64,000 bases of DNA from an uncultured Candidatus Saccharibacteria bacterium (GCA_964495685.1 CAZBVQ010000001.1:233521-297520); one strand, 5' to 3'. Shown: positions 1-36,923, counted from the first letter of the stretch. Numbers and translations: made by a program. Notes: generated by a model from the letters alone, not told the origin.

Positions 1-102
1 TGTTGAGAATTTGATTAGTATTCTTATGGAAAAGGGAAGTAGTGGCTTCTGGGGCTTAAAAGATGTTATAAAAAGCTAGTTGGTAACTCGACTACACAAA
101 CC

Positions 103-141
103 CTGTGAACCAAGCTAAGCTGGTTCACAGAGTCCTTTTTT
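103..141 (+). terminator. Rho-independent terminator
   Basis: Perfect 10-bp stem CTGTGAACCA/TGGTTCACAG with an 8-nt loop, followed by a T6 run. Likely ends a gene lying upstream of the window. Confidence 0.55.
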
Positions 142-197
142 CGTGATATTGTTAATTCACAATTAAATATGTTGCCTAAACTCTTTGCAAAAAGGGC

Positions 198-342
198 ATG
201 GCATTAAGTCCTATCAAGCGCAGAAACCCCGTCGTGGGGTCGCTTGATAGGCCATATCGGGAAACCGGTATGAGAGACTTCGGTCTCTACCCGCGGCGGG
301 ATTTCTGCGTCCTGCTCGGGATTAAAAGCCCTATCAAGCAAT
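198..342 (+). promoter_or_regulatory. Structured 5' leader (possible cis-regulatory RNA or attenuator) upstream of CDS 343
   Basis: Several strong hairpins with GAAA and UUCG tetraloops. CCTATCAAGC occurs twice (212-222 and 322-332) and both copies can pair with GCTTGATAGG (243-253), giving mutually exclusive structures. ORFs 198-431 and 204-527 lie inside and look spurious. Confidence 0.3.
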
Positions 343-1017
343 ATGGAATCAAAAAAATCTACCGTAAGTATCTTCAGGAATCTGTATTTCTGGGGAATTG
401 TGCTGTCTGTGCTTATGTTTCTAACGGTTAATAAGGTCGTCGGGTTGTCGTTAGATCTTTTGACGCTGATTCTTTGGCATAAGAAAAATCTTAAGACAAA
501 GCACATGATCGATAGTGAGGCGATCAAAAAAGAGGCACGCGATTACCTTGAGAAAGCAAAACAAGAGGGAAGGCTTCCTGTAACTCAGAGTTCAGCTCTT
601 CTCGATCCAGGAGAAAACGCATACTTAACTGAAAATACAGTACTCAGTGAGACCAGAGCTGTTCGTCAAACCACCGGAAGGTTTGCCAGTACGCGTATAT
701 TCGGAAGTATGAGGTACGGCGCTGTCGCGAGTCGATCGGAAAGTCATCAAGAGTGGAGAGTAATCGATAGCGGGAAATTAATCTTGACTAACAAGAGCTT
801 TATATTTCTAGGCAACAAGGAAAAAAGAAATCTTCCGCTTAAAAAGATATTGGCAGTTGAGACTTATGCCAATGCGATAGAAGTAAGCTCTGATACAAGA
901 AGCAAGAGTTTGAGACTCCCTGTCCGTAATCCATATATCTGGACGTCTGCGATACAAATTTTGAGATCAACAGATGGTAATGGTTCCATGTCCAATGCTT
1001 CTATTCGCATTGAATGA
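343..1017 (+). CDS. Hypothetical membrane-anchored protein (N-terminal TM helix, possible bacterial PH-like C-terminal domain)
   Basis: 224-aa ORF with a hydrophobic N-terminus. No recognised catalytic motif. Confidence 0.45.
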   Translation: MESKKSTVSIFRNLYFWGIVLSVLMFLTVNKVVGLSLDLLTLILWHKKNLKTKHMIDSEAIKKEARDYLEKAKQEGRLPVTQSSALLDPGENAYLTENTVLSETRAVRQTTGRFASTRIFGSMRYGAVASRSESHQEWRVIDSGKLILTNKSFIFLGNKEKRNLPLKKILAVETYANAIEVSSDTRSKSLRLPVRNPYIWTSAIQILRSTDGNGSMSNASIRIE

Positions 1018-1119
1018 TTCCATTTAACTCCAGACGTGTGGAAGGTGGATTTGTTCAATTTGAACCATAGCAATTTAAGAGTCTGTCTTAATTCTAAGTG
1101 ATTTCAATTAAATTCCTGA

Positions 1120-1659
1120 TTATTTTTGTCCCTTCACCTTTTTCCATATCCCATCTCTTTCTTTCATAGAATCTTCCATTGCTTGAAGGACTCTATTTAA
1201 TCTAGCCTCCTTTTCTTCCTTGCTCTCTGTTTTAGTTTGATCTTTTGGTCTCGTATCGAGCAAGCCTGACGAACGTAACTCATCAAGCTTATCAATATCG
1301 TCCTCAATATTATTGCTCATATTGCCAACATAGTCATGTATGAACTTTTCAAATCGCAATTCAGCCAGTACTTTTGAAAGAGGTTTATATCTATCATGAT
1401 TGTTTGATAGATAGTATTTTGCAGCTCCCATATCACCCTCATGTATCTTCTTTATGACTACAGATTCAGCAAGGTCCCCAAGGCTTTCACGTCCAATAGA
1501 CAGGGCCTTGTTTACCTCAACTCTGAACTCATAGTTATCTTTTCTCCAACGGTTGAAAGTCGCACGACCTAAACCGATTTTTCTACAGGCCAGCCGCATA
1601 TTCGGAGTTTCTCTAAGAAATTCTATGAGCTTCTGTTTGTCATAATTACTTCGAGTCAT
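1120..1659 (-). CDS. Phage terminase small subunit-like HTH DNA-binding protein
   Basis: N-terminal HTH (ACRKIGLGRATFNRWRKDNYEFR) followed by a region typical of TerS/Nu1-like proteins. Sits next to the ParB-methylase gene, as in phage packaging modules. Confidence 0.5.
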   Translation of the reverse strand: MTRSNYDKQKLIEFLRETPNMRLACRKIGLGRATFNRWRKDNYEFRVEVNKALSIGRESLGDLAESVVIKKIHEGDMGAAKYYLSNNHDRYKPLSKVLAELRFEKFIHDYVGNMSNNIEDDIDKLDELRSSGLLDTRPKDQTKTESKEEKEARLNRVLQAMEDSMKERDGIWKKVKGQK

Positions 1660-2983
1660 TTATTTTCTGGCGCTTTTTGCCTGTGAATTTCTCCCAGCGG
1701 TTCAAAATTACTTCCGCATATACTGGAGATTTTTCCATCAGGAAACACCTTCGACCCAAGGTAATTGATGCGATCAAAGTAGATCCACTCCCGCCAAACA
1801 CTTCTAATACCAATTGGCCGCGTTTGGTTAACACTTTTATGTAAGGTATGAGTATTGGTAGTGGTTTGACCCCGAAGATGATGCCTTGGCCTGATGATTT
1901 CTCATCTGCTGCATTGTAGTCAATGAAATCTGTAGGGCAGTATTTCTTACCTTTTTCATATGACTCCCATTGTGGCTTGCCAGAGATGGCAAACAAGGCA
2001 GTACGGTATTCGTTTTCAATCAGTTCTTCCTCCTCCTCAAGTCTTATCTCCGCTTGTGGTTCGCTCGTTCCAACCATGGCGATATCGTATTTAGAGAATA
2101 GCTTATGTTTGCCGGCATACCCCTGATTGCGATTGGGGAGATGCCAGACGATCATATTCCTGACTTTCCAACGTTTTTCCATTTCATTCCAGATTGTTCT
2201 TATATTCTTCCAGTTTTCATAGACAATGATAGAGAAATCCTTGGCTTGCACTTTGCTTACATTGTTCATCCATAATTGGGTGAAGTTATCTGGCAAAGAT
2301 TCTGTTTCAAGATAGCGTCTATTTTTCTTTGTACCGAAACCGACAGTAGCCTCGCCATGACGTGTTTTACCTTTTAAATAGTCGAGAATATATGGAGGAT
2401 CCGTCATAACCATATCTGCCTTATGGTCGCCCATGAGCCTTAGCATGTCCGCTTCAATAGTTGAATCTCCGCACATTAACCGCGAACCATCGAGATCATA
2501 CAGATCACCTTTTTTGACTGTTATCTCAGTAATATCCAACTTATCAAGTTCATGTTGAAGATCGAATTGTTCCTCAGCTTTTTCTTCTTTGAAAATGTTG
2601 TCTAATTCTTCAGAATCAAACCCAACTGATGCTAGGAAAGACTCGTCGAATTCCGCCAATAGTTCAAGATCAAACTCACCCTGGTTTTTATTTAATCGCA
2701 AGTTCAACTCTTTTTCTTTTTCAATATCGGGTATATTTATGTATACGATAGGGACTTCGGTATAGCCCAGCTCCTTTAGAGTTTCTAATCGAAAGTTGCC
2801 ACCGATAACTATATTTTTTCGATTTTCGGCCCCGTTCAAAATTATTGGATCGACTACTCCAAATTTTTTAATACTTTCTTTAAGGTGCTTTCTTGCTTCC
2901 TCATCCCATACTCTAGGGTTATATGGAGCAGGGATGAGGCTGGTAATAGGAACATACTCAACACGCAGATTTTTGTCTTGCAT
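1646..2983 (-). CDS. ParB-like nuclease domain fused to N6/N4 DNA methyltransferase (phage-type)
   Basis: N-terminal ParB/Srx motif (VPITSLIPAPYNPR ... GGNFRLETLKELGY). C-terminal MTase with DPPY (motif IV) followed later by FGGSGST (motif I), i.e. beta-class order. Confidence 0.85.
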   Translation of the reverse strand: MQDKNLRVEYVPITSLIPAPYNPRVWDEEARKHLKESIKKFGVVDPIILNGAENRKNIVIGGNFRLETLKELGYTEVPIVYINIPDIEKEKELNLRLNKNQGEFDLELLAEFDESFLASVGFDSEELDNIFKEEKAEEQFDLQHELDKLDITEITVKKGDLYDLDGSRLMCGDSTIEADMLRLMGDHKADMVMTDPPYILDYLKGKTRHGEATVGFGTKKNRRYLETESLPDNFTQLWMNNVSKVQAKDFSIIVYENWKNIRTIWNEMEKRWKVRNMIVWHLPNRNQGYAGKHKLFSKYDIAMVGTSEPQAEIRLEEEEELIENEYRTALFAISGKPQWESYEKGKKYCPTDFIDYNAADEKSSGQGIIFGVKPLPILIPYIKVLTKRGQLVLEVFGGSGSTLIASITLGRRCFLMEKSPVYAEVILNRWEKFTGKKRQKINDSK

Positions 2984-3248
2984 GATAATTATTGCCAGAC
3001 ACCCACCTATAGATTAAAAGCACCGTGGCGATTTCGAGGCATCTGGCAAAAAGAAAACGCCCAATGCTGTTTTTGTTTTTGTGTGGCGTGTTTGTGTTAT
3101 AGCTCGTGTAAAGAAGTGCTGGCTATTTCAGCAGTGTTTGTTTTTGTGTTACTTACATATTATACCTCCCAATTTATCTGTCAAAGACAAAGATGATTAA
3201 CAGGCATGATTTCTTGATACTGTAAAAATAAAGTGATAGATTTCCATC

Positions 3249-3824
3249 ATGAATAACATATTGCTAAAGTTTTTTCTTATTTTGGAGAGGTTGGGAGTAG
3301 ACCGTAAACACTTGAAGCAATATGTTGTGTTCTTGATCGTGGTCTCAATCGTAACATTCTCTCTTATCTACTCTGGAGTTTTCTCTACGGTTGGTCCTAT
3401 TATATTTATTGTAATCTTCGGGATATTTTTCACTATTTTATGGTTTATCGCTGGTTATAATGTCTTTCGTTCGTTATTGGTCGCAAGTATTGGTTTGAGC
3501 TTTATCATCTTTATAGGTCAATCATATTGCTCTCTACCTGTAGTACAACGCACGGCAAATGATTCGCTTATGACTCTGGTTGGCTTTGGCTTTATTTACG
3601 TCGTCGCTCAATTCATATGGTCATTGTATAAGGAATTATTTGGTGACAAACACGCAAGAGAGGAATGGAGACAAAAGGGTATAGTACCTCTTTTTAAGGA
3701 GATAAATGGTGGTAAACATAATTGGCTCGTTCTTGTAATTTACGGTGGTTTGGTAATTCTCTTTGTTTGGCAAGTCTATAATGTTATCAATCCGATCATC
3801 CGTGGACTTTGTGTATATCAATAA
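3249..3824 (+). CDS. Integral membrane protein, unknown function
   Basis: About 5 predicted hydrophobic helices. Confidence 0.45.
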   Translation: MNNILLKFFLILERLGVDRKHLKQYVVFLIVVSIVTFSLIYSGVFSTVGPIIFIVIFGIFFTILWFIAGYNVFRSLLVASIGLSFIIFIGQSYCSLPVVQRTANDSLMTLVGFGFIYVVAQFIWSLYKELFGDKHAREEWRQKGIVPLFKEINGGKHNWLVLVIYGGLVILFVWQVYNVINPIIRGLCVYQ

Positions 3825-3858
3825 TTATGAATCAAGAAAAGATAATTATGGTAGGATT

Positions 3859-4263
3859 ATGCTTATGATTGAAACAATTTATCCTACTGATTGGCAGAAG
3901 ACACGAGGTATTTATTCGCCAGCAAAAAAGATCGATCTTGGCGGAGCTTATTTAATTTTCGTATCAGGTCAGCAGGTTGATAAAAATGCAGATAATGAAG
4001 CTATAACATCTGATGTTGAAGAACAAACAGAACTGGTCTTTCGGGCCATTGAGAAGATTCTAAAGGCAGCTGGTGCATCCGTAGATGATGTTGTAAAAGC
4101 TCAAATATTTCTGACAGATATAAATGATTTTCCAAAGGTGTCAGTTATAAGAGATAAGTGGTTTGCAAAAAGTAGGCCGGTAAGTACTCTGGTTGAAGTA
4201 AATGCCATGACACGCAAAGGGGCGAAAGTTGAGATTGAAGTAACAGCGGTTATCGAGAAATAA
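3859..4263 (+). CDS. ridA: RidA/YjgF family reactive-intermediate deaminase
   Basis: C-terminal signature AQIFLTDINDF...PVSTLVEVNAM..GAKVEIEV. Start moved to the internal ATG to avoid overlapping the upstream membrane gene. Confidence 0.8.
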   Translation: MLMIETIYPTDWQKTRGIYSPAKKIDLGGAYLIFVSGQQVDKNADNEAITSDVEEQTELVFRAIEKILKAAGASVDDVVKAQIFLTDINDFPKVSVIRDKWFAKSRPVSTLVEVNAMTRKGAKVEIEVTAVIEK

Positions 4264-4273
4264 TCGAAAATAT

Positions 4274-4735
4274 ATGGATGACAAACTTTTTTTAAGTGAA
4301 GCAATTAAGAAAGCAAAAGAATCGGTAACTAAAGGTGGATTTCCTGCTGGTGCGGTGGTAGTTAAAGATGGCAAGATTATTGGGTCGGGTATAAGTATCG
4401 GTAATACATTATTTGATCCAACAAGTCATGGGGAAATAGCAGCAATTAGAAATGCCTGTGCAAATATCAAAACGCATGAACTGTTCAATGCGGTAATCTA
4501 TACTTCAATGGAGCCATGTTCGATGTGTTTTAGTGCAACTATGTGGGCAGGAATTGGAAAGATTGTTTATGCTTGTTCCAGAGAAAAAGTAGCCGAAGAA
4601 TATTACGGTGGTCATTATCACATTATGACAATAAATGGTCAGCTAATTCATCCTATACAATTGGTGCATGTTCCCGATCTCGAACAGGAGTCTTTGGATG
4701 TTGTTAAAGAATGGGAAAAGGCGATCGGTATATAA
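4274..4735 (+). CDS. Nucleoside/tRNA-specific deaminase (CMP/dCMP deaminase zinc-binding family, TadA/guanine deaminase-like)
   Basis: HGE...PCSMC zinc-binding motifs (HGEIAAIRNA, MEPCSMCFSA). Confidence 0.8.
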   Translation: MDDKLFLSEAIKKAKESVTKGGFPAGAVVVKDGKIIGSGISIGNTLFDPTSHGEIAAIRNACANIKTHELFNAVIYTSMEPCSMCFSATMWAGIGKIVYACSREKVAEEYYGGHYHIMTINGQLIHPIQLVHVPDLEQESLDVVKEWEKAIGI

Positions 4736-4782
4736 AAACCCGCCTACGGTTAGAACGTAGTGCGGGTTGCTGTGCGTATTTC

Positions 4783-5403
4783 TTACTTCTCTCGCAATAC
4801 AAGCCTGAATGATTTGTTTTCAAGACCGCCACTACCGCGATTACACGGTTCGACAGCCTTGAGGGCAAATTTCAGGCCAGCCTTCTTAAGGACTTGATTG
4901 GCTCCTTGAATCCGCATGACGACACCTCGTGTCAGTTCCCAGCATCTAATCGGCTTATTGCCGTTGTCTCTCAACTTTCTGAACATGGTTTTGTAAATGT
5001 CCGAACAGTCGATTGAGAGGATGGTTTCCCATGTTTGCTGAGTGATATCATTTCCACCATCGGCCAACAGCAGTTTCTCAAGGTATGCCATTAGCTTTTC
5101 TCTGGCGATTTTGACAGGATCATCAGATGGCTCAATAATGTGATGCTCAACTTCAAGGGTGAAGACGAGCACAACCTCAGTGGCGACCAACACGATCGGA
5201 CCGTTGTCATTCTGAGTCTTGCAACTTAAGATTGCACGACCGCCAAATAACAAACAAATCTGATGCTCAGTCAGTTCAAGGTTCCGGAGGGCTTTTTCTG
5301 GAACCCTGAACTCTTCCGCAATGAGTGTGTGTCTGTAGATCATGCTTCCTTTATGCAAAGGTGATTCCCGAAGACATACATATCCGATTTCAGTAATTTT
5401 CAT
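4783..5403 (-). CDS. Hypothetical protein, no recognisable family
   Basis: 206-aa ORF, tightly coupled (15-nt gap) to the upstream gene on the same strand. Confidence 0.45.
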   Translation of the reverse strand: MKITEIGYVCLRESPLHKGSMIYRHTLIAEEFRVPEKALRNLELTEHQICLLFGGRAILSCKTQNDNGPIVLVATEVVLVFTLEVEHHIIEPSDDPVKIAREKLMAYLEKLLLADGGNDITQQTWETILSIDCSDIYKTMFRKLRDNGNKPIRCWELTRGVVMRIQGANQVLKKAGLKFALKAVEPCNRGSGGLENKSFRLVLREK

Positions 5404-5418
5404 AGGCCACCTTTTTGG

Positions 5419-5943
5419 TTAACGTCCAGGGCCATTGATTGTCCAGACAACTTGGTCGTGATTGCTGCCAAGGATTGGACGTCCGTAAGGCCTGAAGGCC
5501 TTGAACTGCCGATCGAACTCATCAGTCTTGTTGTAGAGACCAAGCTCAAATAATGCTCCGCTGGTCACGGGTGGTACCTCGGCATTCTCAATGGTGCCTT
5601 TGACCTCTTTGGTTTCCCAACAGAGAACGTCTCCATTATCGGCGCGGAAACGAATTTCCAACATGACTTTGGGAGGAATTGGTGCTTCACCCTCACGACC
5701 GTAGCATTTCTCCATATTTTCGCAATAGAAGAAGGCTTCGATCATGACATCGCAATGAACACCCGCGGCGTCTCCTTCAACAGGGGTAACGGCGATGTCT
5801 ACCTGCGTGATGGTGGCTGGAGCATTGAAGGTATGTTCGAGATAAATCTTGAGCACACCTAGCGCTTGCATCCGAACCACACTGATTGGTTGAGTGTTCT
5901 TACGGGTGGCACGACCACGGAACAGATCAAGTAGATTTTTCAT
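5419..5943 (-). CDS. Hypothetical protein, no recognisable family
   Basis: Start trimmed to MKNLLDLF. Forms a two-gene operon with 4783-5403. Confidence 0.45.
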   Translation of the reverse strand: MKNLLDLFRGRATRKNTQPISVVRMQALGVLKIYLEHTFNAPATITQVDIAVTPVEGDAAGVHCDVMIEAFFYCENMEKCYGREGEAPIPPKVMLEIRFRADNGDVLCWETKEVKGTIENAEVPPVTSGALFELGLYNKTDEFDRQFKAFRPYGRPILGSNHDQVVWTINGPGR

Positions 5944-6160
5944 AGAACTATTCTTTCTCAGAACATGTCTGCAACATGCAGACACGGCTACTGTCTCAGC
6001 AGCCTCTTTTTCGCAAGAAATATTGTGAAGAAAAGGCTACTGGGACAATGTTTTTATCTAGTATATCAAGATGTTTCTGGTTGCAATTATACACCATAAT
6101 ATAGCCATCTGTCAATAAATCCTTTAAACCTAACCTTCATATCTAAAGGGTCAGAAGACT

Positions 6161-6253
6161 GTCTCATTTGTCTCATTTTAAAAATTGACTGTGACCAGGG
6201 AGGGTAGAACATATGACAGATTTAGTGCTAAGATAGCCTTACAAGGTCTCACC
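6161..6253 (+). repeat. Promoter-like repeated module, copy A (GTCTCATTT x2 / TTGACTG ... ATAGCCTTACAAGGTCTCACC)
   Basis: Tandem GTCTCATTT GTCTCATTT then TTGACTG (6185-6191), then a 21-bp core ATAGCCTTACAAGGTCTCACC (6233-6253). It sits about 65 bp upstream of the ATG at 6317. Copy B at 10307-10403 is near-identical (21/22 in the core). Confidence 0.55.
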
Positions 6254-6316
6254 TCATGTGGTTCTAGACCGGAGAACACAGCAAATAAGTTGCCGTCAAC
6301 GGCAAGAATTATCAAA

Positions 6317-7201
6317 ATGAAAGATCGAATAGAAGTTAAAGATGTTCTACCTGAAGTACCAAAAATTACAGACGAACAATTAGAAGCAGCACGTAAGTCA
6401 GGAAGATATGAGTCGATTGCCTTTGAACAGTATAAGTTTGTAGCACAGTTGATAGCTATCGTTGCGAGAATTGATAAGACGTCGGAGGGATTCAAGAAAA
6501 TTCCTTCTCAGCAGTACCACATTTTGATGGGATTGATGAATCGTTGCGCTCGGTTAATTTTGAGCACAATGGAGCTTTCTCATGAAGGTAAATTTGGCGA
6601 AACTTCGTCGATAATATTTCGATGTATCTTCGAATCCGGGGTTAAAATTATATGGTTTTGTTCTGATGGTTTACAAAGTAAGTTCGATCTTTATATAAAT
6701 GACGGCCTCAAGCCTGAAATTGAACTTCTGGATACGATTAAGAAAAATGTAACAGAACGAAATGGTGCTATCTTAGGTATAGAAGAGCGGATGATGGATT
6801 CTGTCTATTATCATATTAAGACAGGTGAGACCACGGAGTCGGCGGTCCGACTCTCAAAAAAGATGCCTGATATGGCTACAATTGTTAGAGATATTGGCTT
6901 TGATCGAATTATGTATGTAGCCAATCATAGAATTGGATCACATCATGTTCATGGCACGTGGCCTAGCCTGCTATTTTCTTATTTGGAAAAAGAAGGTGAT
7001 GGTCTGATTGCCAGAGGAAATAATGTGTCAACCAGGGCGAATGAATATATAGCAACATCTATAATAATGACTCGAACAATGAGTGCATATTGCGATTTTA
7101 TGCTAGAAACACCCATGAAAGAAATTTTAATAAACCTTTGTCTTGAAGAAGAAAATGATTTGATTAGGATATTTGAAGATATGACAAAGCATGGTTGGTA
7201 A
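6317..7201 (+). CDS. Hypothetical protein with HEPN-like R-x4-H motif (ANHRIGSHHVH)
   Basis: Start placed at the internal ATG (MKDRIEVKD) downstream of the repeat and of a hairpin at 6290-6306. No other family signature. Confidence 0.45.
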   Translation: MKDRIEVKDVLPEVPKITDEQLEAARKSGRYESIAFEQYKFVAQLIAIVARIDKTSEGFKKIPSQQYHILMGLMNRCARLILSTMELSHEGKFGETSSIIFRCIFESGVKIIWFCSDGLQSKFDLYINDGLKPEIELLDTIKKNVTERNGAILGIEERMMDSVYYHIKTGETTESAVRLSKKMPDMATIVRDIGFDRIMYVANHRIGSHHVHGTWPSLLFSYLEKEGDGLIARGNNVSTRANEYIATSIIMTRTMSAYCDFMLETPMKEILINLCLEEENDLIRIFEDMTKHGW

Positions 7202-7418
7202 TTTATTATTTTGAGCAAACCTTGCCCCTTCTTTCAATTCTTCCAATCATCCACACTGTCTCCATAAAACAATAAAATCCAATCTGCCATAGTGAATGAA
7301 GGAGACATACAGATGCTTCGAAAGAAGTGGTATACTTTTCGTACAAGGATTTTATGTTTTGGACCAAAAGCTCAACATCGTACACGTCCCCCAGCAAAAT
7401 TTGTCCGTACACCATAAA

Positions 7419-8414
7419 ATGGACACTCTCCTCAAAAAAATAAATGATCCAGGGCTTCAAGCTATTATTGGTTGTATTACCATAGATATGGGTAAAGAGA
7501 TAATAACGGAAAGGTTCAAGGACATTGAGAAAATGTATCCTCATTACGACAGGGATTTTTTATGGCTGCTAGCTTACTCGCAGGAACGTTCGCTTGTAGT
7601 TCGAAGTTATATTGAAGCAAATTATAAAAAATTTCACCAAAGTCTAGACTCGGGATTTCCTAGGAAACTGTCGAATACAAATAGATTTGAATCTCACATG
7701 TGGGAGATGATTCTTTGTGATGTACTTTCCTCTTCTGGGGAATTGATTCCGAAGTCTTCTGCGGGCGCGGATTTAATTCTTAAAGTGCCAAATGGACAGA
7801 GTATTCAGGTTGAAGCAATCGCCCCAGATGAGGCTGATGATGCGAGCCTTCGTGCTGAAAGGCCCGACTATTCTAAAAGTAATACGTTTACTTCAGGTGG
7901 AAATATAGAAGACATCGAGAATCCAGTATTACTTAGGTGTATTCATGCCTTTGATAAAAAGGCCAAAAAAGGATACAGAAAAGATCAGCCACTTATTATC
8001 GCAATTAATACAAGTAAGGTTGTGGGTATTGTATCTTTGGATGACTTTATTATCAGGCGTGTCCTGTTAGGGTTAGGATGCGTGACAATTACACGTAGGA
8101 CTGATGGTTCCTATCAAACTGGCCTACAACAAAAAAGCGATCTATCGAAACCTAATGAGACGAGTTTCTCAGTCGGTCGTTTTAGAGATCCTGAATATAG
8201 TCATGTAAGTGGGGTCATCTATACGTCTCAAAAATCTCTAAGCCTTATTCCGGGTGGATATGGTTGGTCTAATAGTGGTATATATTATGTCCCTAATCCT
8301 ATGGCGATAAATAAAGTTAATGCCAATTTTGACTTTTTTAAGACGATCATTTGTGATGAGGAAGCTTATAGGGACATTCTGCCAAAAAGAGATTTCGTAA
8401 GTAATGTTGTGTAG
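7419..8414 (+). CDS. Hypothetical protein, no recognisable family
   Basis: Start placed at MDTLLKKIND. About 331 aa. Confidence 0.45.
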   Translation: MDTLLKKINDPGLQAIIGCITIDMGKEIITERFKDIEKMYPHYDRDFLWLLAYSQERSLVVRSYIEANYKKFHQSLDSGFPRKLSNTNRFESHMWEMILCDVLSSSGELIPKSSAGADLILKVPNGQSIQVEAIAPDEADDASLRAERPDYSKSNTFTSGGNIEDIENPVLLRCIHAFDKKAKKGYRKDQPLIIAINTSKVVGIVSLDDFIIRRVLLGLGCVTITRRTDGSYQTGLQQKSDLSKPNETSFSVGRFRDPEYSHVSGVIYTSQKSLSLIPGGYGWSNSGIYYVPNPMAINKVNANFDFFKTIICDEEAYRDILPKRDFVSNVV

Positions 8415-8506
8415 GCTACATGCTTTTTAGTATTAGTAGAAGCATAGTTGAAACTCTCAGTGGTACAGGTATTTCTTAAAAGAATAAAATGGATTAAGAT
8501 ATCTAC

Positions 8507-8743
8507 ATGCCTGACACAGAAGTATGCCCAATATGTTTACGCCCATACGGTCTGACAAACAAAAAAGTCAGATATCATCTCGGATACCAACCCCCAAGAT
8601 ATATTTATGCGTGTCAGTCATGTAATTTTGCCGAGTATCTTTCTAGACATTGGAGAAAACATTTAACACGATGGCAGTGGTATAAAATAAATGTGGTCAG
8701 AAAATTTACAGGCAAGAAGTATGACCATGAAGTCGTGCAGTAG
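8507..8743 (+). CDS. Small zinc-ribbon protein (CPxC...CxxC)
   Basis: CPICLRPYG ... YACQSCNFAEY. Basic and Trp-rich C-terminus. Confidence 0.4.
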   Translation: MPDTEVCPICLRPYGLTNKKVRYHLGYQPPRYIYACQSCNFAEYLSRHWRKHLTRWQWYKINVVRKFTGKKYDHEVVQ

Positions 8744-8778
8744 TTGTCAGTAAAGTCCCAACCCCCCCACACCCACCC

Positions 8779-9309
8779 ATGAAAATTCTCATTACAGGCA
8801 TAGCGGGAAGTGGTAAGACGACGATAGCGACCGAATTGAATAGGTTGGGTTATAGTGCAACTGATCTAGATACAAACGGAACGTGTGCCTGGGTAAATAA
8901 AAAGAGTGGTCTTGAAACTGAATATTCAGAAGCCTCTGGTCCACAGTGGATCGATGAACATCGCTGGCAGGTGATTGTGCCAAAACTTACTGCATTACTT
9001 TCACGTTTCCCGACCGATAGGAAGCTATTTGTAACGGGAAAGATAGCGCGCATGCAGGTGAAAGAAATGAGTACACTATTCGATATCATCTTCTTACTCA
9101 GGCCTGATGATCTGATTATCGATGAACGTTTGGCACAGCGCACCAGTAATCACAAAAACTTCGCAAAAACGACACAAGAAAGGGAGGTCATTCTACGCAA
9201 CAGGCATGAATTTGAAAAAGCGTGTCTCGATAGTGGGGCGCTCGTTATTAGTAATAATGGTAGTCTGCAGAGTGTGATTGGGGAGATACTGGGGAAGATT
9301 AAGGGGTAA
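8779..9309 (+). CDS. P-loop NTPase / small nucleotide-kinase-like protein (AAA_33 / zeta-toxin-like fold)
   Basis: Walker A GIAGSGKTT at the N-terminus, 176 aa, RLAQR-type lid region. Confidence 0.65.
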   Translation: MKILITGIAGSGKTTIATELNRLGYSATDLDTNGTCAWVNKKSGLETEYSEASGPQWIDEHRWQVIVPKLTALLSRFPTDRKLFVTGKIARMQVKEMSTLFDIIFLLRPDDLIIDERLAQRTSNHKNFAKTTQEREVILRNRHEFEKACLDSGALVISNNGSLQSVIGEILGKIKG

Positions 9310-9461
9310 TGGGCGCTTGAGATGTGATGGTGTGATATCAGGCTGATTGTTCACGAGAGAACCTCTAGAGAAAAGGCTTTGGAGCAAGCCGCTAATTTTG
9401 TACCTTAAATGAAAAACCACCACCGCTTGCTATGCGATGGTGGTCGTGACCATTTTTCAGT

Positions 9462-10163
9462 TTATGGATTCTTTAGGAACGGTTCTGGGTTAACTTCGGC
9501 GTCTTCGCCAAAAAAATTCCCAGTGTTAACGTCGACGAGACTAAACTCGTAGCACGATATGCCGGTGCGTACGCTCAGTGCGAAGGTGTTCGCAATGAAC
9601 GCATGGAGCGCATGGCGACAGAATCCATCCACATCCGGCTCCCGAGGCGTTCCCAATTGTTGGCGGAGCGATTTGACTGAAATAAATACCTCGGCAGTGT
9701 TCACTTCAATATTACACTGTTTGAGGGTAAACGTGGTGAGATGAACGCGGTCGGGGCAATAAGCTCTGATCGTGATATCGTATACGGACTTTCTTGCTTC
9801 CACGTCTTCAATCTTGGCAGTCCATATGGTTGCCTCAGTCATGGGCACAGGCTCGATATTCTCGACATCAAAGCGGACTTGATCACTGATCTGGGGACGA
9901 CCCCCCTTGTTCGCTGACCCTTTAGCAATCCTCAGTTGAATTTTTCGCTCCTCTGCGCCGCAATCCAAGACAACTTTGCGGCCATGGAACAAGTTGGAAA
10001 CCATTCGCTTAATGGTCTGCAGGTGATTCCTTTTAAACTTGTCGATTGTCTCAGTTGTCTGTCCTGAAAAGACGGGGGACAGGAGTTTTACCAGTTCTAC
10101 CACGAGGGAGAGCACGCTCCCGCTCGAGGGTCCATTTTCGGCAGTTTCGGATGATTGAGGCAT
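9462..10163 (-). CDS. Hypothetical protein, no recognisable family
   Basis: Start trimmed to MPQSSETAENG. Convergent with the plus-strand genes of the island. Confidence 0.45.
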   Translation of the reverse strand: MPQSSETAENGPSSGSVLSLVVELVKLLSPVFSGQTTETIDKFKRNHLQTIKRMVSNLFHGRKVVLDCGAEERKIQLRIAKGSANKGGRPQISDQVRFDVENIEPVPMTEATIWTAKIEDVEARKSVYDITIRAYCPDRVHLTTFTLKQCNIEVNTAEVFISVKSLRQQLGTPREPDVDGFCRHALHAFIANTFALSVRTGISCYEFSLVDVNTGNFFGEDAEVNPEPFLKNP

Positions 10164-10306
10164 AAGCCTTGTATCCTTTTGGTTGTGTGTTGTTGTCAAA
10201 TAACGGTATATCGGCACATTGCCGATTGCGTTACTTTCACACCATAACATAAAATATTTACTGGGTCAAATACCTAAACTGACTTACAAAATATGATCAT
10301 CTGAGT

Positions 10307-10403
10307 GTCTCATTTTGACTGCGTTGAGCCCTAAAATAGAGCGACCGAGACGCGTAGGAAAGAATCAGAAAGAAATGTTAGAATAGCCTTACAAGGTTTC
10401 ACC
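10307..10403 (+). repeat. Promoter-like repeated module, copy B (TGTCTCATTTTGACTG ... ATAGCCTTACAAGGTTTCACC)
   Basis: Same motifs as copy A but with a different internal spacer (69 vs 48 nt). About 80 bp upstream of the small ORF at 10486. Confidence 0.55.
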
Positions 10404-10485: not shown

Positions 10486-10659
10486 ATGTCACGAAGAAAA
10501 ATATTGCTTGTCGTATGGGCTCTTTCAATAATCATTTCAGGTGTGTTGGTTTGTTCTGCGTCTGGTAATGCGGAATACGGCTGGGCAGTCAGTCTCGGGC
10601 TTCTCGCAGTTTCGCTCGGGGTTCCGCTTATGCGAGCGCTCACGGAGTTTTCGAAGTAG
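10486..10659 (+). CDS. Small membrane protein (57 aa, two hydrophobic helices), not in the ORF track
   Basis: ATG MSRRKILLVVWALSIIISGVLVCSA... to TAG. Downstream of repeat copy B. Confidence 0.3.
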   Translation: MSRRKILLVVWALSIIISGVLVCSASGNAEYGWAVSLGLLAVSLGVPLMRALTEFSK

Positions 10660-10718
10660 GCTTCAACTTCGTCACATACATCCCACGCCCAAGCTTTTTC
10701 CTATATAATACCCCCATC

Positions 10719-11204
10719 ATGAATAACACCCCAAAAAATACAATTTGCTTATGGTTCGAGAAGGACGCCGAGGGCGCAGCACAGTTTTATGCCAAGACAT
10801 TTCCCGACAGCAAGGTCATCGATGTGTCCGGTGCACCGAGCGATTTTCCAGATGGTAAAAAGGGTGATGTTCTTGCGGTAACATTCGAAGTCTGTGGAAT
10901 CCCGTGTATGGGCATTAATGGTGGACCCATGTTCAAACAAAGTGAAGCCTTTTCTTTCCAGATCGCAACGGATGATCAAGAAGAGACAGACAGATATTGG
11001 AATGCAATTGTGGGGAATGGTGGCAAAGAGAGTGAGTGTGGTTGGTGCAAAGATAAGTGGGGAGTATCGTGGCAAATTACGCCGCGCACATTGACCGAAG
11101 CTCTCTCTGCCGGAGGTGCCGAGGCAAAAAGCGCCTTTGACGCCATGATGACCATGCAAAAGATAGACGTGGCGGCCATAGATGCGGCACGAAAAAATGG
11201 GTAA
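10719..11204 (+). CDS. VOC/glyoxalase-superfamily protein, PhnB-like (3-demethylubiquinone-9 3-methyltransferase domain family)
   Basis: ICLWF...AQFYAKTF and CGWCKDKWGVSWQI motifs characteristic of this domain. Confidence 0.75.
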   Translation: MNNTPKNTICLWFEKDAEGAAQFYAKTFPDSKVIDVSGAPSDFPDGKKGDVLAVTFEVCGIPCMGINGGPMFKQSEAFSFQIATDDQEETDRYWNAIVGNGGKESECGWCKDKWGVSWQITPRTLTEALSAGGAEAKSAFDAMMTMQKIDVAAIDAARKNG

Positions 11205-11277
11205 GATGGTCGAGAGAGGAACGGTGTATAGAAGAATTATCGGGACTTATGCATTGTAATGGCATAGAATTACCCAC

Positions 11278-11535
11278 ATGAACCCCAGTCACAAAAAAGC
11301 ATCACTCATCACCCTAGGCCTCACATCCCTCACCCTTTCTCGCGCCTGGTTCGCTCTCATCAATGATCCTGAAGGCCCCAACCTTCTCATTGTCATCGTG
11401 TTGGCGGCTATTTTGTTCGTTATTGCTCGGGCCACATTCAAGCCTCTCTCAGTCAAATGGGGAAGTCTCAAAGGAGTTGCGACGGCGATCGGCGTTCAGA
11501 TTGTGGTGGGGGTGCTGTTGTATATGGTGTTGTAG
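11278..11535 (+). CDS. Small membrane protein
   Basis: 85 aa, two hydrophobic segments. Confidence 0.3.
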   Translation: MNPSHKKASLITLGLTSLTLSRAWFALINDPEGPNLLIVIVLAAILFVIARATFKPLSVKWGSLKGVATAIGVQIVVGVLLYMVL

Positions 11536-11686
11536 TACAATTGACGCATGTTCACCCACACTACCTTCATTGTCCGTTGTCGCGCCATTATCCTCCATGC
11601 GGGCAAGATACTTCTGGTCAAACATGCACCAGTGAGCAACTTCTACGCTTTATCACAGCGTAGGTATTTCTTGCTATAATCACCCT

Positions 11687-12400
11687 ATGAATCTCACTCA
11701 GAAAGTCGTCGTCATCACCGGTGCCAGCAAGGGTCTCGGAGCGGTCATGGCTGATATGTTCAGAGGTCGTGGCGCTCAGGTGATCATCTCTGCTCGAGAT
11801 AAAGCTGCACTCGACGAAGTCGCCAAGAAAACAGGTGCTGTCGCGTGTGTTGCCGATGTGACCAAGCCTGCTCATATGGAAAAGGTGGCGGATTTCGCAG
11901 TGCAAAAATTCGGGACCATCGATATTTGGATTAACAATGCGGGTATTTGGTTGCCACGTGGACTTTTCGAACAAGTAGACATGAAGAGCGCGCATGATCT
12001 GTTCGAGGTCAATCTGTTCGGTATGATGTATGGTTGTCGTGCCGCGCTGGCTCATATGAAGAAGCACACGAATGGTACTATAGTTAATATTATTTCTACT
12101 GCCGCACTGGCACCTCGTCCCTACACAGCAGTGTACGCTGCGAGTAAAGCGGCTGAGAAAAATTTCACCGATTCATTACGGGAAGAGCTCATACAGGAAG
12201 GTACAAACATTACCCTGATTGGCGTGTATCCTGGTGGCATCAAGACGCACCTTTTCGATGTTGAATCACAGGCACCCAAGGATTTCGACTTATTCTTGGC
12301 ACCAGAGACAGTTGCAGAGAAGATCATTACTAATCTTGAGCAAGACCAGCCAGAATTGGAGCAGGTCATCAAAAGGCCGGGGCAGGAGATACAGAAATAA
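11687..12400 (+). CDS. Short-chain dehydrogenase/reductase (SDR)
   Basis: TGASKGLG, NNAG, YAASKAA catalytic motifs. Confidence 0.9.
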   Translation: MNLTQKVVVITGASKGLGAVMADMFRGRGAQVIISARDKAALDEVAKKTGAVACVADVTKPAHMEKVADFAVQKFGTIDIWINNAGIWLPRGLFEQVDMKSAHDLFEVNLFGMMYGCRAALAHMKKHTNGTIVNIISTAALAPRPYTAVYAASKAAEKNFTDSLREELIQEGTNITLIGVYPGGIKTHLFDVESQAPKDFDLFLAPETVAEKIITNLEQDQPELEQVIKRPGQEIQK

Positions 12401-12404
12401 TGCC

Positions 12405-13283
12405 ATGAAGATTTCCACACAGAGAATATGTACCGATGACGGACTTGAGTTATTCGGACTCTTGTACGAACCTGATGCGAAGTCAGCAAAAATACTTGTA
12501 CATGTTCACGGTATGGCAGGAAATTTTTACGAAAATCCATTTCTTGATTTCATTGCAAAAACTCTCACAGATCAGGGAATAGCCTTTTTCACCTTTAATA
12601 ATAGAGGATGCGAGTCTTTTAAGGATTTGACGCAGAAGGTTGGCGGTAAGAAAAAGTTTGTAAGAATAGGTAACGCCTATGAAAAATTTGAGGAATCAGT
12701 GCTGGATATCAAAGCTACTATAGATGCCGTTTCCACATTAGGTTTTTCTGAAATACACCTTTCAGGTCATAGCCTCGGGAGTCCCAAAGTTGTTTATTAT
12801 GTGTCAGAAACAAAGGACCCACGGATTAATTCAGTGCTACTCCTCTCTCCTTCCGATATGCTTGGTTTAGTGCGAGCTGATAGGGAGAGATTCGAGCGAG
12901 ATATTCAAGAAGCCACAACAATGTCCCAAAATGGGAAAGGAGGGGATCTTATTTCATTGAAAGTTTGGGATGAGTGCCCAGTAAGCGCGGACACCTATAT
13001 AAGTTTATTTGGCGATAATTCCAAGGCGGGCATTTTCAACTTCTATAATTCGTCCGACCGTCTAGAAGTTTTAGGGAAGATCACTCAACCTCTATTTGCG
13101 GTGATGGGTAGAAAAGATGATGCGTTAACTGTTTCGATAGAAGAGACCATGGAACGTATAACAAAGGCTACAAAAAATAGCCCCCATGTTGAGACACAGA
13201 TTCTCGGCGATGCTAATCATGGATATTTTGGAGATGAACAGGGGCTGGCTGATGCCATACTTGGATGGCTATGTCGTAAGTAG
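12405..13283 (+). CDS. Alpha/beta hydrolase
   Basis: HVHGMAGN and GHSLG nucleophile elbow. Start moved to the ATG just after the SDR stop, because the track ORF overlaps the SDR in another frame. Confidence 0.8.
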   Translation: MKISTQRICTDDGLELFGLLYEPDAKSAKILVHVHGMAGNFYENPFLDFIAKTLTDQGIAFFTFNNRGCESFKDLTQKVGGKKKFVRIGNAYEKFEESVLDIKATIDAVSTLGFSEIHLSGHSLGSPKVVYYVSETKDPRINSVLLLSPSDMLGLVRADRERFERDIQEATTMSQNGKGGDLISLKVWDECPVSADTYISLFGDNSKAGIFNFYNSSDRLEVLGKITQPLFAVMGRKDDALTVSIEETMERITKATKNSPHVETQILGDANHGYFGDEQGLADAILGWLCRK

Positions 13284-19640: not shown

Positions 19641-19673
19641 AGATATAGTATACCACAGCGTTCCTGGTCCCAT

Positions 19674-19713
19674 CCCAGGCCCGGCCTAGAACTAGTTCTA
19701 GGCCGGGCCTGGG
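19674..19713. repeat. 40-bp perfect palindrome, extended double copy of the REP-like element
   Basis: CCCAGGCCCGGCCTAGAACTAGTTCTAGGCCGGGCCTGGG. Lies in the divergent promoter region between the DoxX-like operon and the ZIP transporter. Confidence 0.8.
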
Positions 19714-19768
19714 AAATTGCCAAGCATGAGGTAATACAGTAGACTGGTCATACGTATAAACCTCTCAT

Positions 19769-33301: not shown

Positions 33302-33307
33302 TGTAAT

Positions 33308-36868: not shown

Positions 36869-36923
36869 AAGTTACCGAAGAGTCTTCGCTAGTTTATCTG
36901 TATGGTAATAGTAGTATGAACCC

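What the first reader, a model, noticed from the sequence alone, without database searches (positions are those of the whole stretch)
6161..10403. Duplicated promoter-like module (GTCTCATTT/TTGACTG ... ATAGCCTTACAAGGTYTCACC) bracketing a 4.1-kb gene block
Two near-identical composite motifs occur 4.15 kb apart, both upstream of plus-strand genes (the ATG at 6317 and the small membrane ORF at 10486). The 21-bp core ATAGCCTTACAAGGT[C/T]TCACC matches 21/22. Each is preceded by TGTCTCATTTT and TTGACTG, although the spacer between the boxes differs (48 vs 69 nt). Either the two promoters belong to one regulon with a shared operator, or the repeats are the direct-repeat boundaries (att-like) of an inserted 4.1-kb cassette. 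Copy A is followed by a 7-bp-stem hairpin just before the RBS.
Basis: seen in the sequence. Interest (0 to 1): 0.55.

Follow-up and report, generated by a model that had tools for sequence, protein, structure and literature searches.

The report
Junction repeats of two tandem genomic islands
The two repeated "promoter modules" are most likely the attachment-site scars left where two foreign DNA islands sit head to tail in the chromosome of a small-genome (CPR) bacterium; a third copy lies just outside the window next to a serine recombinase gene, so this is an ordinary kind of mobile-element boundary in a poorly studied group.

Summary
The repeat is real. TGYTARRATAGCCTTACAAGGTYTCACC occurs at 6226-6253 and 10376-10403, and further collinear boxes lie upstream of both copies.

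It is not a generic promoter or regulon motif. A profile search of 73.7 kb finds one more copy only. That copy (C) lies 11.3 kb to the left, outside the window. It sits about 115 nt beyond the stop codon of a large serine recombinase gene and 750 nt downstream of a tRNA-Gln.

The three copies share flanks in a specific pattern. C and A share the right flank, A and B share the left flank, and the other flank pairs share nothing significant. This is the pattern attL / attP-like / attR expected for two elements integrated in tandem:
- Element 1: 11.3 kb, 40% GC, carries the recombinase.

The host DNA is 49% GC. All three copies keep TGnTAnnnT, so they probably also act as outward-reading extended -10 promoters.

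One point is unexplained. The 20-nt core is identical to half of the terminal palindrome that flanks IS200-like Y1-transposase genes in Microgenomates, but the window copies form no such hairpin.

No empty site or circular form was found. Verdict: a new member of a known kind, of moderate interest.

The parts
6226..6283 (+). Junction repeat A, the attP-like junction between element 1 and element 2. It comprises the extended -10-like TGCTAAGAT (6226-6234), the 20-nt core TAGCCTTACAAGGTCTCACC (6234-6253), and a right arm to 6283 that is shared with copy C.
   Evidence: Searches give the exact repeat. C vs A is ungapped over 58 nt (-8..+49) at 83% identity, E 2.5e-13; A vs B is 86% over -8..+19. 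One search gives the arm statistics.
10376..10403 (+). Junction repeat B, the attR-like junction between element 2 and host DNA. It comprises TGTTAGAAT (10376-10384) and the core TAGCCTTACAAGGTTTCACC (10384-10403). The right flank is unrelated to those of A and C.
   Evidence: the A-B right flanks share no 8-mers.
6061..6191 (+). Left-arm boxes of copy A (the right end of element 1): GTATATC 6061-6067, ACACCATAATATA 6091-6103, GTCTCATTT x2 at 6160-6179, TTGACTG 6185-6191.
   Evidence: 29 nt are covered by collinear 8-mers shared with copy B, reached by 0 of 2000 shuffles.
10206..10321 (+). Left-arm boxes of copy B (the right end of element 2): GTATATC 10206-10212, ACACCATAACATA 10239-10251, TGTCTCATTTT 10306-10316, TTGACTG 10315-10321.
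6086..6115 (-). Consensus sigma-70-like promoter (TTGACA-18-TATAAT, 12/12) for the leftward 174-aa gene. It overlaps the shared left-arm boxes.
10241..10269 (-). Promoter-like site (TTGACC-17-TATGGT, with TG before the -10) for the leftward 262-aa gene. It overlaps the shared left-arm boxes.
1..6247 (.). The right 6.2 kb of element 1, which is 11.3 kb in all and starts at about -5026, outside the window, with the large serine recombinase gene. The window part holds LOOT RNA (173-288), a 224-aa ORF, a terminase-small-like HTH protein (1120-1659, -), a ParB-DNA methyltransferase (1646-2983, -), a membrane protein, RidA, a deaminase, and 206-aa and 174-aa ORFs (-).
   Evidence: GC 0.403 against 0.49 for the host.
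6248..10397 (.). Element 2, the 4.15-kb block of the finding. It has no recombinase gene and shares no internal similarity with element 1.
   Evidence: GC 0.413; no protein or DNA similarity to the interior of element 1.
6317..7201 (+). DUF5677 protein (294 aa), the first gene of element 2.
   Evidence: PF18928, E 1.7e-14.
7296..8414 (+). 372-aa protein related to the candidate anti-phage defence proteins PD-T7-5 and PD-T7-1.
   Evidence: PD-T7-5 E 5.3e-14, PD-T7-1 E 1.8e-6; phrog_8571, E 5e-18.
8507..8743 (+). 78-aa Cys-rich (zinc-finger-like) ORF with no family match.
8779..9309 (+). P-loop kinase-like protein (AAA_18).
   Evidence: E 2.3e-9.
9462..10250 (-). 262-aa orphan ORF at the right end of element 2, with host-like GC (0.489). 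The true start may lie downstream of the first ATG.
   Evidence: the only hit among 5.8 billion proteins is itself..
5419..5943 (-). 174-aa ORF at the right end of element 1. It occupies the position equivalent to that of the 262-aa ORF, but no similarity between the two was detected.
10486..11204 (+). Host-side operon downstream of copy B: a 57-aa membrane ORF (10486-10659) and a VOC/3-dmu-9_3-mt family protein (10719-11204).
6290..6305 (+). Hairpin TTGCCG-TCAA-CGGCAA in the leader of the DUF5677 gene. Its function is unknown.

Best explanation
The repeats are the junction (attachment-site) sequences of two genomic islands integrated head to tail at one chromosomal site. The site lies downstream of a tRNA-Gln gene in a CPR/Patescibacteria chromosome.

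**The three junctions.**
- Copy C lies outside the window and is attL (host arm - core - element arm P').
- Copy A (6226-6283) is an attP-like hybrid (P - core - P'), where the right end of element 1 meets the left end of element 2.
- Copy B (10376-10403) is attR (P - core - host arm).

**The two elements.**
- Element 1 is 11.3 kb. It carries a large serine recombinase gene about 115 nt from the core of copy C. Inferred: this enzyme catalysed integration by recombination within or next to the common core TTACAAGGT.
- Element 2 is the 4.15-kb block of the finding. It has the same kind of ends but no recombinase. It is therefore either a non-autonomous element that depends on the recombinase of element 1, or a decayed relative. 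Its cargo looks like anti-phage defence (DUF5677 and a PD-T7-5-like protein).

**Promoter function (inferred).** The site lies in a promoter and leader region. Each copy keeps an extended -10 (TGnTAnnnT).
- Copy B would still drive the host 57-aa/VOC operon.
- Copy A would drive the cargo operon of element 2.
- The orphaned host promoter in C would read about 110-115 nt into a strong hairpin followed by a T-run. This would shield the recombinase gene from antisense transcription.

**Shown versus inferred.** Shown: the three repeats, the pattern of shared arms, the recombinase gene and its position, and the composition shift. Inferred: catalysis by this recombinase, the crossover position, promoter activity, and mobility of element 2.
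For: 1. **Only three copies, all at junctions.** A profile search of 73.7 kb finds three copies (E 1e-7 to 8e-7) and nothing else; the next hit has E 3.1.
2. **Arm-sharing pattern.** C and A share the right arm (58 nt ungapped, 83%, E 2.5e-13; 24 nt in 8-mers, reached by 1 of 2000 shuffles). A and B share the left arm (29 nt in 8-mers, 0 of 2000). C-A left and A-B right share nothing. C-B is not significant.
3. **Recombinase gene next to copy C.** Pfam gives Resolvase + Recombinase + Zn_ribbon_recom. The N-terminus reads YARKST. PDB matches are SprA/YokA (1e-10) and TP901-1 integrase (4e-9).
4. **Homologous recombinases sit at the same distance from a host junction.** Of 43 homologues in IMG/VR (41-72% identity), four loci have the 3' end of a convergent tRNA gene about 110-150 nt beyond the recombinase stop. 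This matches the roughly 115 nt from the stop to the core of C. Five loci have a tRNA-Gln downstream, as in this genome.
5. **Composition.** Element 1 is 40.3% GC, element 2 is 41.3% and the host is 48-49%.
6. **Only the ends match.** The interiors of the two elements share no similarity.
7. **The interval is a plasticity zone.** The stretch between tRNA-Gln and the histidine kinase gene varies. A strain with 98.6% identity in core genes carries different genes there. A relative whose kinase is 71% identical has a tRNA-Gln about 2 kb from the kinase, against about 19 kb here.
8. **Precedent.** SCC/ECC cassettes are moved by large serine recombinases, have roughly 50-bp direct-repeat att sites, and often carry multiple attR sites (PMC6222049).
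9. **Promoter signature.** The -10 pattern is TAGTGT / TAAGAT / TAGAAT, each preceded by TGn. The critical positions are kept and the middle positions vary.
Against: - No empty site, excised circle or island-free strain was found. All 8 contigs that carry the VOC gene carry the islands, and every public copy of the locus is 100% identical.
- The copies show no significant dyad symmetry around any centre. Serine-recombinase att sites are usually imperfect inverted repeats.
- Two polymorphic core positions (GGT[C/T]T and T[T/C]ACC) cannot both be assigned to one side of a single crossover without a later mutation.
- The left-arm similarity between A and B runs about 170 nt with indels. This is far more than a serine recombinase needs, so it reflects homologous element ends rather than the att site itself.
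- The att regions next to homologous recombinases do not resemble this one.
- The Peptidase_S51 gene left of copy C is itself low in GC (35%). The true host boundary may therefore be at the tRNA-Gln, and copy C may be an internal junction.
Confidence: 0.62

Rival explanations
1. The copies are paralogous promoter/operator modules of one regulon. A shared regulator binds the 21-mer that overlaps the -10 and the transcription start, and the GTCTCATTT boxes are further operator sites. The repeats would then have nothing to do with insertion.
For: All three copies keep TGnTAnnnT. A and B lie 64 and 83 nt upstream of + strand genes. GTCTCA recurs in the upstream boxes and in the core.
Against: Only three copies occur in 73.7 kb and about 70 genes. 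Copy C has no downstream gene. The asymmetric arm sharing and the GC shift that coincides with the copies are not expected for operators.
Confidence: 0.13
2. The copies are decayed members of a dispersed repeat family of the REP / IS200-end type, derived from the terminal palindromes of Y1-transposase cassettes and once moved by such a transposase. Their position at island borders would be incidental.
For: The 20-nt core is identical to the upstream palindrome of Y1_Tnp (PF01797) genes in a Levyibacteriota genome (L003) and in a JGI metagenome contig (L005). In those loci the element occurs three times in direct order around the gene.
Against: The window copies lack the 3' arm and do not fold into the hairpin (z -1.0 and -1.4, against -5.6 and -4.1 for L003 and L005). 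There is no Y1 transposase gene in the 74 kb. Only three copies exist. Identity is confined to 20 nt.
Confidence: 0.1
3. The copies are relics of segmental duplication or homologous recombination between similar divergent intergenic regions, with no site-specific recombinase involved. The recombinase next to copy C would belong to an unrelated prophage remnant.
For: The A-B similarity is patchy, has indels, and covers a whole divergent promoter region of about 190 bp. No dyad symmetry was found.
Against: The flanking genes are not paralogous. The chimeric structure of A (left like B, right like C) is what recombination of a circle at the core produces. The distance from the core of copy C to the recombinase stop matches the tRNA junctions of homologous recombinases.
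Confidence: 0.1

Closest known systems
SCC / ECC cassette chromosomes (SCCmec of staphylococci, ECC of Enterococcus faecium), moved by the large serine recombinases CcrAB
   Same: Variable cargo islands lie at one chromosomal site and are bounded by direct-repeat att sites of some 50 bp. Complex or composite islands carry several att copies. Sub-elements without a recombinase lie between att copies (PMC6222049; the existence of pseudo-SCC elements without ccr is from my own knowledge).
   Different: Here there is one recombinase, not a CcrA/CcrB pair. The target is a promoter/leader region downstream of tRNA-Gln, not the 3' end of rlmH. There is no TATCATAA core. The host is a CPR bacterium. 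Mobility has not been shown.
Accretion of integrative elements with cis-mobilisable elements (CIMEs) in streptococci (ICESt1/ICESt3 family)
   Same: A recombinase-bearing element and a recombinase-less element are arranged in tandem, separated by an internal att site. The short element can be moved in cis or in trans (from my own knowledge; not verified in the paper library, one search returned nothing useful).
   Different: Those elements use tyrosine integrases and the 3' end of fda. Here the only recombinase is a serine recombinase.
Temperate phages and prophage-like elements with large serine integrases (SPbeta SprA, TP901-1, phiRv1)
   Same: The recombinase has the same domain set and detectable sequence similarity. 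The gene sits at the edge of the element, close to the junction. phiRv1 uses a repeated element (REP13E12) as attB (own knowledge), which parallels the possible link to IS200-like palindromes.
   Different: Element 1 has no capsid or tail genes, only a terminase-small-like protein and a ParB-methyltransferase. No recombination directionality factor was identified.
IS200/IS605-family and REP/RAYT terminal palindromes
   Same: The core shows 20/20 identity with the outer half and loop of the palindrome that flanks Y1_Tnp genes in Microgenomates.
   Different: There is no hairpin in the window copies, no Y1 transposase nearby, and the copies sit at junctions of much larger islands.

Membership tests
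Attachment sites of elements integrated by a large serine recombinase (tandem array) | A large serine recombinase gene (Resolvase + Recombinase + zinc-ribbon domains, catalytic Ser) lies within the element, close to one junction. | tested here: met
   L019 4747-6012 (-), about 115 nt from the core of copy C. One search shows the YARKST motif. One search gives PDB matches to SprA/YokA and TP901-1 integrase. The gene lies outside the window.
Attachment sites of elements integrated by a large serine recombinase (tandem array) | The junction copies share arms as B-O-P' / P-O-P' / P-O-B'. | tested here: met
   C-A right arm: 24 nt in 8-mers (1 of 2000 shuffles). A-B left arm: 29 nt (0 of 2000). C-A left and A-B right: 0 nt.
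Attachment sites of elements integrated by a large serine recombinase (tandem array) | The DNA between the copies is foreign: its composition differs from the host, and it is absent from relatives. | tested here: inconclusive
   The GC shift is clear (0.40-0.41 against 0.49). No relative with an empty site could be retrieved.
Attachment sites of elements integrated by a large serine recombinase (tandem array) | Each att site is an imperfect inverted repeat around a central crossover dinucleotide. | tested here: not met
   In some searches, the best symmetry of A, B and C is reached by 86-290 of 300 shuffles. Only the L005 palindrome is significant. This weakens the assignment to a serine recombinase. 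It does not weaken the reading of the copies as junctions.
Attachment sites of elements integrated by a large serine recombinase (tandem array) | Excision and integration are observed (circular junction, restored attB). | not testable with these tools
   This needs the reads of SRR6747782, DRR783857 and ERZ27309394, or an experiment.
Sigma-70 extended -10 promoter | TGn followed by a -10 hexamer with T1, A2 and T6, at a suitable distance upstream of a gene. | tested here: met
   TGCTAAGAT at 6226-6234, TGTTAGAAT at 10376-10384 and TGCTAGTGT in copy C. The -35 region matches only 3/6. The consensus scan did not list these sites because it requires both hexamers.
Sigma-70 extended -10 promoter | A mapped transcription start. 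| not testable with these tools
   No transcript data are available.
Regulon operator / generic promoter motif | Several copies upstream of unrelated genes across the genome. | tested here: not met
   One search finds three copies in 73.7 kb, all at island junctions, and one of them has no downstream gene. The rest of the roughly 0.7-Mb genome could not be read.
REP / IS200-IS605 terminal palindromes | A stable imperfect hairpin on one strand. | tested here: not met
   the window copies have z -1.0 and -1.4 and do not adopt the L003/L005 fold. L003 and L005 have z -5.6 and -4.1.
REP / IS200-IS605 terminal palindromes | An associated Y1 (HUH) transposase gene. | tested here: not met
   In one search, tblastn with the two Y1_Tnp proteins gives no hit in the window, L001, L006 or L007. 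The whole genome was not available.
Tyrosine-integrase att sites at tRNA genes | A tyrosine integrase gene in the element and a duplicated tRNA 3' end. | tested here: not met
   No integrase-family Pfam hit was found on any island gene. The repeat is not a tRNA fragment.

The most novel reading that the evidence does not exclude
The core and left arm of these att sites (TAGCCTTACAAGGTCTCACC) are not merely similar to, but derived from or aimed at, the terminal palindromes of IS200-like Y1-transposase cassettes. Those cassettes are widespread in Microgenomates. On this reading, this lineage of serine-recombinase elements (probably CPR phages or their satellites) uses the palindromes as its natural attachment site, much as phiRv1 uses REP13E12. 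The elements in this window would then have arrived from such a host and integrated into a look-alike site in a promoter. This would link two unrelated mobile-element systems across CPR phyla and give a first handle on the host range of CPR mobile elements.
Probability: 0.15. Interest if true: 0.65.

Novelty: new member of a known kind. Interest (0 to 1): 0.4.

Why it matters
Mobile elements, their attachment sites and their defence cargo are poorly charted in CPR/Patescibacteria, which have tiny genomes and cannot be grown alone. This locus offers three things:
- a concrete, testable att site;
- a recombinase with 43 close relatives in viral contigs;
- a small recombinase-less island that carries defence-like genes.

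It also cautions against reading a repeated motif upstream of genes as a regulon, because integration into a promoter with promoter replacement gives the same picture. The exact 20-nt match to the ends of IS200-like cassettes in another CPR lineage is a lead on exchange between mobile elements.

Tried and rejected
**Searches for further copies or relatives of the motif**
- Rfam on the window (gathering threshold), and on the copy C region, L003 and L005 (E-value mode). No family covers the repeat or the palindromes.
- Exact-motif scans of genome, metagenome and viral collections. These gave only two chance hits inside coding sequence (L002, L004) and the two Y1_Tnp loci. The source genome itself is not in the genome collection.
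- A profile search for the att repeat next to 43 homologous recombinases found nothing below E = 2.5.
- Repeats downstream of paired recombinase genes on the same viral contig: none.

**Search for an empty site**
- Homologues of the neighbouring histidine kinase. Synteny is lost beyond the kinase, or the contigs end.
- Exact look-ups of the 57-aa and VOC proteins. All contigs carry the islands.

**Tests on the flanking genes and elements**
- Paralogy of the genes left of copies A and B (174-aa and 206-aa against 262-aa): none.
- Homology between the interiors of the two elements: none.
- The 262-aa protein has no homologue in 5.8 billion proteins.
- The 213-aa and 982-aa proteins of element 1 have no PHROG or PADLOC match.

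**Readings of the repeat itself that were rejected**
- Dyad symmetry of the copies: not significant.
- A coding reading of the repeat (IALQGLT...): rejected. Copy B has a stop three codons later, and 3 of the 4 C/A differences from +17 onwards (CTC/CTT, TCA/CCA, TGT/TTT, GAG/AAG) change the amino acid (my reading of the sequences).
- A tRNA-fragment origin of the repeat: rejected.

**Other**
- Literature on LOOT RNA and on CIMEs gave nothing usable.
- Structure prediction of the orphan proteins was not attempted.

Full report
**1. The observation**

The 21-mer ATAGCCTTACAAGGTYTCACC occurs at 6233-6253 and 10383-10403 on the + strand and nowhere else in the window. This holds even with three mismatches allowed, and no shuffle gave a match. 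The repeat extends to 28 nt: TGYTARRATAGCCTTACAAGGTYTCACC at 6226-6253 and 10376-10403.

TGTCTCATTTT and TTGACTG precede both copies. The spacers are 41 and 61 nt measured from TTGACTG, not 48 and 69. An alignment of the two intergenic regions shows two further collinear boxes, ACACCATAAYATA and GTATATC. The collinear left-flank similarity is reached by 0 of 2000 shuffles.

**2. Context**

The window is a bacterial chromosome. It carries RNase P RNA, LepA, MurJ and a class II ribonucleotide reductase. It belongs to a small-genome CPR/Patescibacteria organism:
- The same locus lies on a 521-kb ENA contig and a 700,686-bp NCBI contig.
- Named relatives of its histidine kinase are Sungbacteria, Azambacteria and "Patescibacteria group".

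Both copies sit in divergent intergenic regions.

| | Gene on the left (- strand) | Gene on the right (+ strand) |
|---|---|---|
| Copy A | 174-aa ORF, with a perfect TTGACA-18-TATAAT promoter | DUF5677 gene |
| Copy B | 262-aa ORF with no homologue among 5.8 billion proteins | 57-aa membrane ORF and a VOC-family gene |

The block between the copies also encodes a protein related to the defence candidates PD-T7-5 and PD-T7-1 (E 5e-14), a small Cys-rich protein, and an AAA_18 kinase-like protein.

**3. A third copy outside the window**

I fetched 9.7 kb to the left of the window (L019). It contains a third copy, C, at L019 4610-4675, about -5048 in window coordinates:

TGCTAGTGTACTTTTACAAGGTCTTACCCCATTTGGTTCTAGACCGAAGAACACAGCA

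Its neighbours are as follows:
- On the left is a Peptidase_S51 gene, which is itself preceded by tRNA-Gln(CTG).
- On the right is the 3' end of a convergent large serine recombinase gene, with Resolvase, Recombinase and Zn_ribbon_recom domains, a YARKST motif, and similarity to SprA/YokA and TP901-1 integrase.
- Between the repeat and the recombinase stop lies a strong hairpin followed by a T-run.

A profile built from the three copies finds only these three in 73.7 kb (E 1e-7 to 8e-7). The next hit has E 3.1. The motif is therefore not a generic promoter, and copy C has no gene to drive.

**4. The pattern of shared arms**

| Pair | Left flank | Right flank |
|---|---|---|
| C and A | no shared 8-mers | 58 nt ungapped at 83%, E 2.5e-13; 24 nt in 8-mers, 1 of 2000 shuffles |
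| A and B | core plus about 170 nt in patches; 29 nt in 8-mers, 0 of 2000 shuffles | no shared 8-mers |
| C and B | not significant | not significant |

This is what two elements integrated in tandem at one site produce: C = B-O-P', A = P-O-P', B = P-O-B'. The part common to all three is TTACAAGGT, and the crossover should lie in or just right of it.

- Element 1 (C to A) is 11.3 kb with 40.3% GC. It holds the recombinase, LOOT RNA, a terminase-small-like protein and a ParB-methyltransferase.
- The host DNA on both sides has 48-49% GC.

The interiors of the two elements share no protein or DNA similarity. Only their ends are alike. Element 2 has no recombinase.

**5. Support from relatives of the recombinase**

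IMG/VR holds 43 homologues with 41-72% identity. In four loci (L031, L049 = L023, L051, L066), the 3' end of a convergent tRNA gene lies about 110-150 nt beyond the recombinase stop. This equals the distance from the recombinase stop to the core of copy C, about 115 nt.

The family thus sits at the very edge of integrated elements, and the junction with host DNA falls where copy C is. Five loci have a tRNA-Gln downstream, as this genome does. The sequences at those junctions are not like the present repeat, so this is an argument from architecture, not from sequence.

**6. Support from the neighbourhood**

The interval between the tRNA-Gln and the histidine kinase gene is variable:
- A strain with 98.6% identity in core genes has other genes next to the kinase. 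Its SDR gene is only 80% identical.
- A relative whose kinase is 71% identical has a tRNA-Gln about 2 kb from the kinase, against about 19 kb here.
- More distant relatives lose synteny.

**7. What is missing**

- No empty site or excised form was found. Every public copy of the locus is 100% identical, and all eight contigs with the VOC gene carry the islands.
- The copies have no significant dyad symmetry. This is unusual for serine-recombinase sites.
- Two polymorphic positions in the core cannot both be placed on one side of a single crossover.
- The Peptidase_S51 gene left of copy C has 35% GC. The outermost boundary may therefore be the tRNA-Gln, with C as an internal junction.

For these reasons I rate "junction repeats of tandem islands" at about 0.6-0.7, and catalysis by this recombinase somewhat lower.

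**8. Promoter features**

All three copies read TGn + TAnnnT: TGCTAGTGT, TGCTAAGAT and TGTTAGAAT. The positions that matter for an extended -10 are fixed and the middle ones are free. The ungapped similarity between A and B continues through the -35 zone (GnGTAGnA).

My inference is that the site lies in a promoter and leader region, and that the elements carry a copy of the promoter:
- Copy B still drives the host operon.
- Copy A drives the cargo operon of element 2.
- The orphaned promoter in C is stopped by the hairpin before it can run antisense into the recombinase gene.

TTGACTG is too far from the -10 to be the -35. The shared upstream boxes overlap the leftward promoters of the terminal genes.

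**9. An unexpected link**

Exact scans with the core returned two loci, apart from two chance hits in coding sequence. They are L003 (a Levyibacteriota genome) and L005 (a JGI metagenome contig). In both, the 20-mer lies about 25 nt upstream of a Y1_Tnp (PF01797) gene, on the opposite strand.

There it is the first 20 nt of a stable palindrome, TAGCCT-TAC-AAGGT-CTC-ACCTT-GCG-AGGCTA (z -5.6 and -4.1). The element occurs three times in direct order:
- upstream of the gene;
- inside the coding sequence, where it encodes ALAS[KQ]GE[T][LF]Q;
- at the stop codon.

Other members of this large family (6374 proteins with E < 1e-20) show the same arrangement with their own sequence variant. In L008 the variant is TTAGCCTCAAAAGGGGACGCCTTG, present three times. 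This indicates concerted evolution within the locus. The arrangement is like that of an IS200-type element (left-end palindrome - tnpA - right-end palindrome).

The window copies keep only the 5' arm, the loop and 3-4 nt of the 3' arm. They do not fold. There is no Y1 gene in the 74 kb. They are therefore not members of that family.

A 20/20 match to two loci of the same family in two collections is not chance. By my estimate, about 9 random hits are expected for the 19-mer in 1.2e12 nt, and these would fall at unrelated places. I cannot explain the match. The most interesting reading is that this recombinase lineage uses such palindromes as its natural target and that the islands came from such a host. 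I give that reading about 15%.

**10. Comparison with known systems**

The closest described systems are the SCC/ECC cassette chromosomes. In those, large serine recombinases move variable cargo bounded by roughly 50-bp direct-repeat att sites, and multiple attR sites are common (PMC6222049). Tandem ICE-CIME accretions in streptococci are also close (own knowledge).

The present case differs in several ways:
- the host is a CPR bacterium;
- there is a single recombinase;
- the target is a promoter region near tRNA-Gln;
- mobility is unproven.

It is a new member of a known kind.

**11. Verdict**

- Interest is moderate (0.4). The value lies in a testable att site and recombinase for CPR mobile elements, and in the unexplained identity with the ends of IS200-like cassettes.

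Noticed in passing
L003 1013-1776; L005 2268-3035; L008 9915-10710; L010 10682-10720: Y1_Tnp (PF01797) genes of Microgenomates carry three direct copies of a 25-33-nt element: one upstream, one inside the coding sequence (encoding ALAS[KQ]G..Q.Q), and one at the stop codon (the TAG of the motif is the stop codon in L003, L008 and L010). The sequence differs between genomes but is nearly the same within a locus, which indicates concerted evolution. In L009 and L010 the gene sits in the dcw cluster between murG and ftsW.
   Followed up: partly
window 173-288 (+): A LOOT RNA (RF03000, 92 bits against a gathering score of 46.4) lies inside element 1, between the 982-aa and 224-aa genes. It therefore sits on a mobile island next to a serine recombinase and phage-like genes.
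   Followed up: no
window 19673-19714, 29362-29380, 33307-33325, 36851-36869, 47717-47735, 48138-48156: A family of seven GC-rich perfect or near-perfect palindromes, TTCTAGGCCSGGCCTAGAA, lies in intergenic positions, often right after stop codons. All are in the host part and none in the islands. They resemble REP elements or terminators. The right arm shared by copies A and C contains TTCTAGACCGG, which resembles half of this palindrome.
   Followed up: partly
window 7296-8414 (+) with 6317-7201 (+): A protein related to the defence candidates PD-T7-5 and PD-T7-1 (E 5e-14 and 2e-6), also matching phrog_8571, follows a DUF5677 gene in one operon-like block. This may be a two-gene defence module in a CPR genome.
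   Followed up: partly
L028-L070 (IMG/VR loci); L031 4406-4483, L049 4371-4444, L051 4376-4448, L066 4382-4454: The recombinase has 43 close homologues in viral contigs. In many loci a convergent tRNA gene (Gln x5, Ser x4, Asp, Glu, Trp) lies downstream of the recombinase stop; in four loci it lies only about 110-150 nt away. Three contigs carry two such recombinase genes.
   Followed up: partly
L019 3787-4570 (window about -5871 to -5088): The Peptidase_S51 gene between tRNA-Gln(CTG) and copy C has only 35% GC and starts 19 nt after the tRNA. In a relative (L026) a GDSL lipase gene starts about 20 nt after a tRNA-Gln(TTG). This suggests gene replacement directly downstream of the tRNA.
   Followed up: partly
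window 11222-13283 compared with L011 5579-7229: A strain with 98.6% identity in core genes has a GDSL lipase in place of the DUF1749 hydrolase, an SDR gene only 80% identical, and lacks the 85-aa membrane ORF. Recombination is therefore frequent in this interval even to the right of copy B.
   Followed up: partly
window 6185-7201 (+): Gene callers of the ENA and NCBI records start the DUF5677 gene at TTG 6185 (336 aa), reading through repeat A. The Logan call starts at ATG 6317 (294 aa). The Pfam domain starts at residue 67 of the short form, and the short form is the more plausible.
   Followed up: partly
window 57210-57609 (+): The RNase P RNA (bacterial class A) scores only 108.5 bits against a gathering score of 100, so it is a divergent RNA, as is common in CPR bacteria.
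   Followed up: no
window 4783-5943 (-) and 9462-10250 (-): The leftward genes at the right end of each element have host-like GC (0.476 and 0.489), unlike the rest of the elements (0.37-0.40). They have no family matches. Their role is unknown (for example directionality factor or regulator).
   Followed up: no
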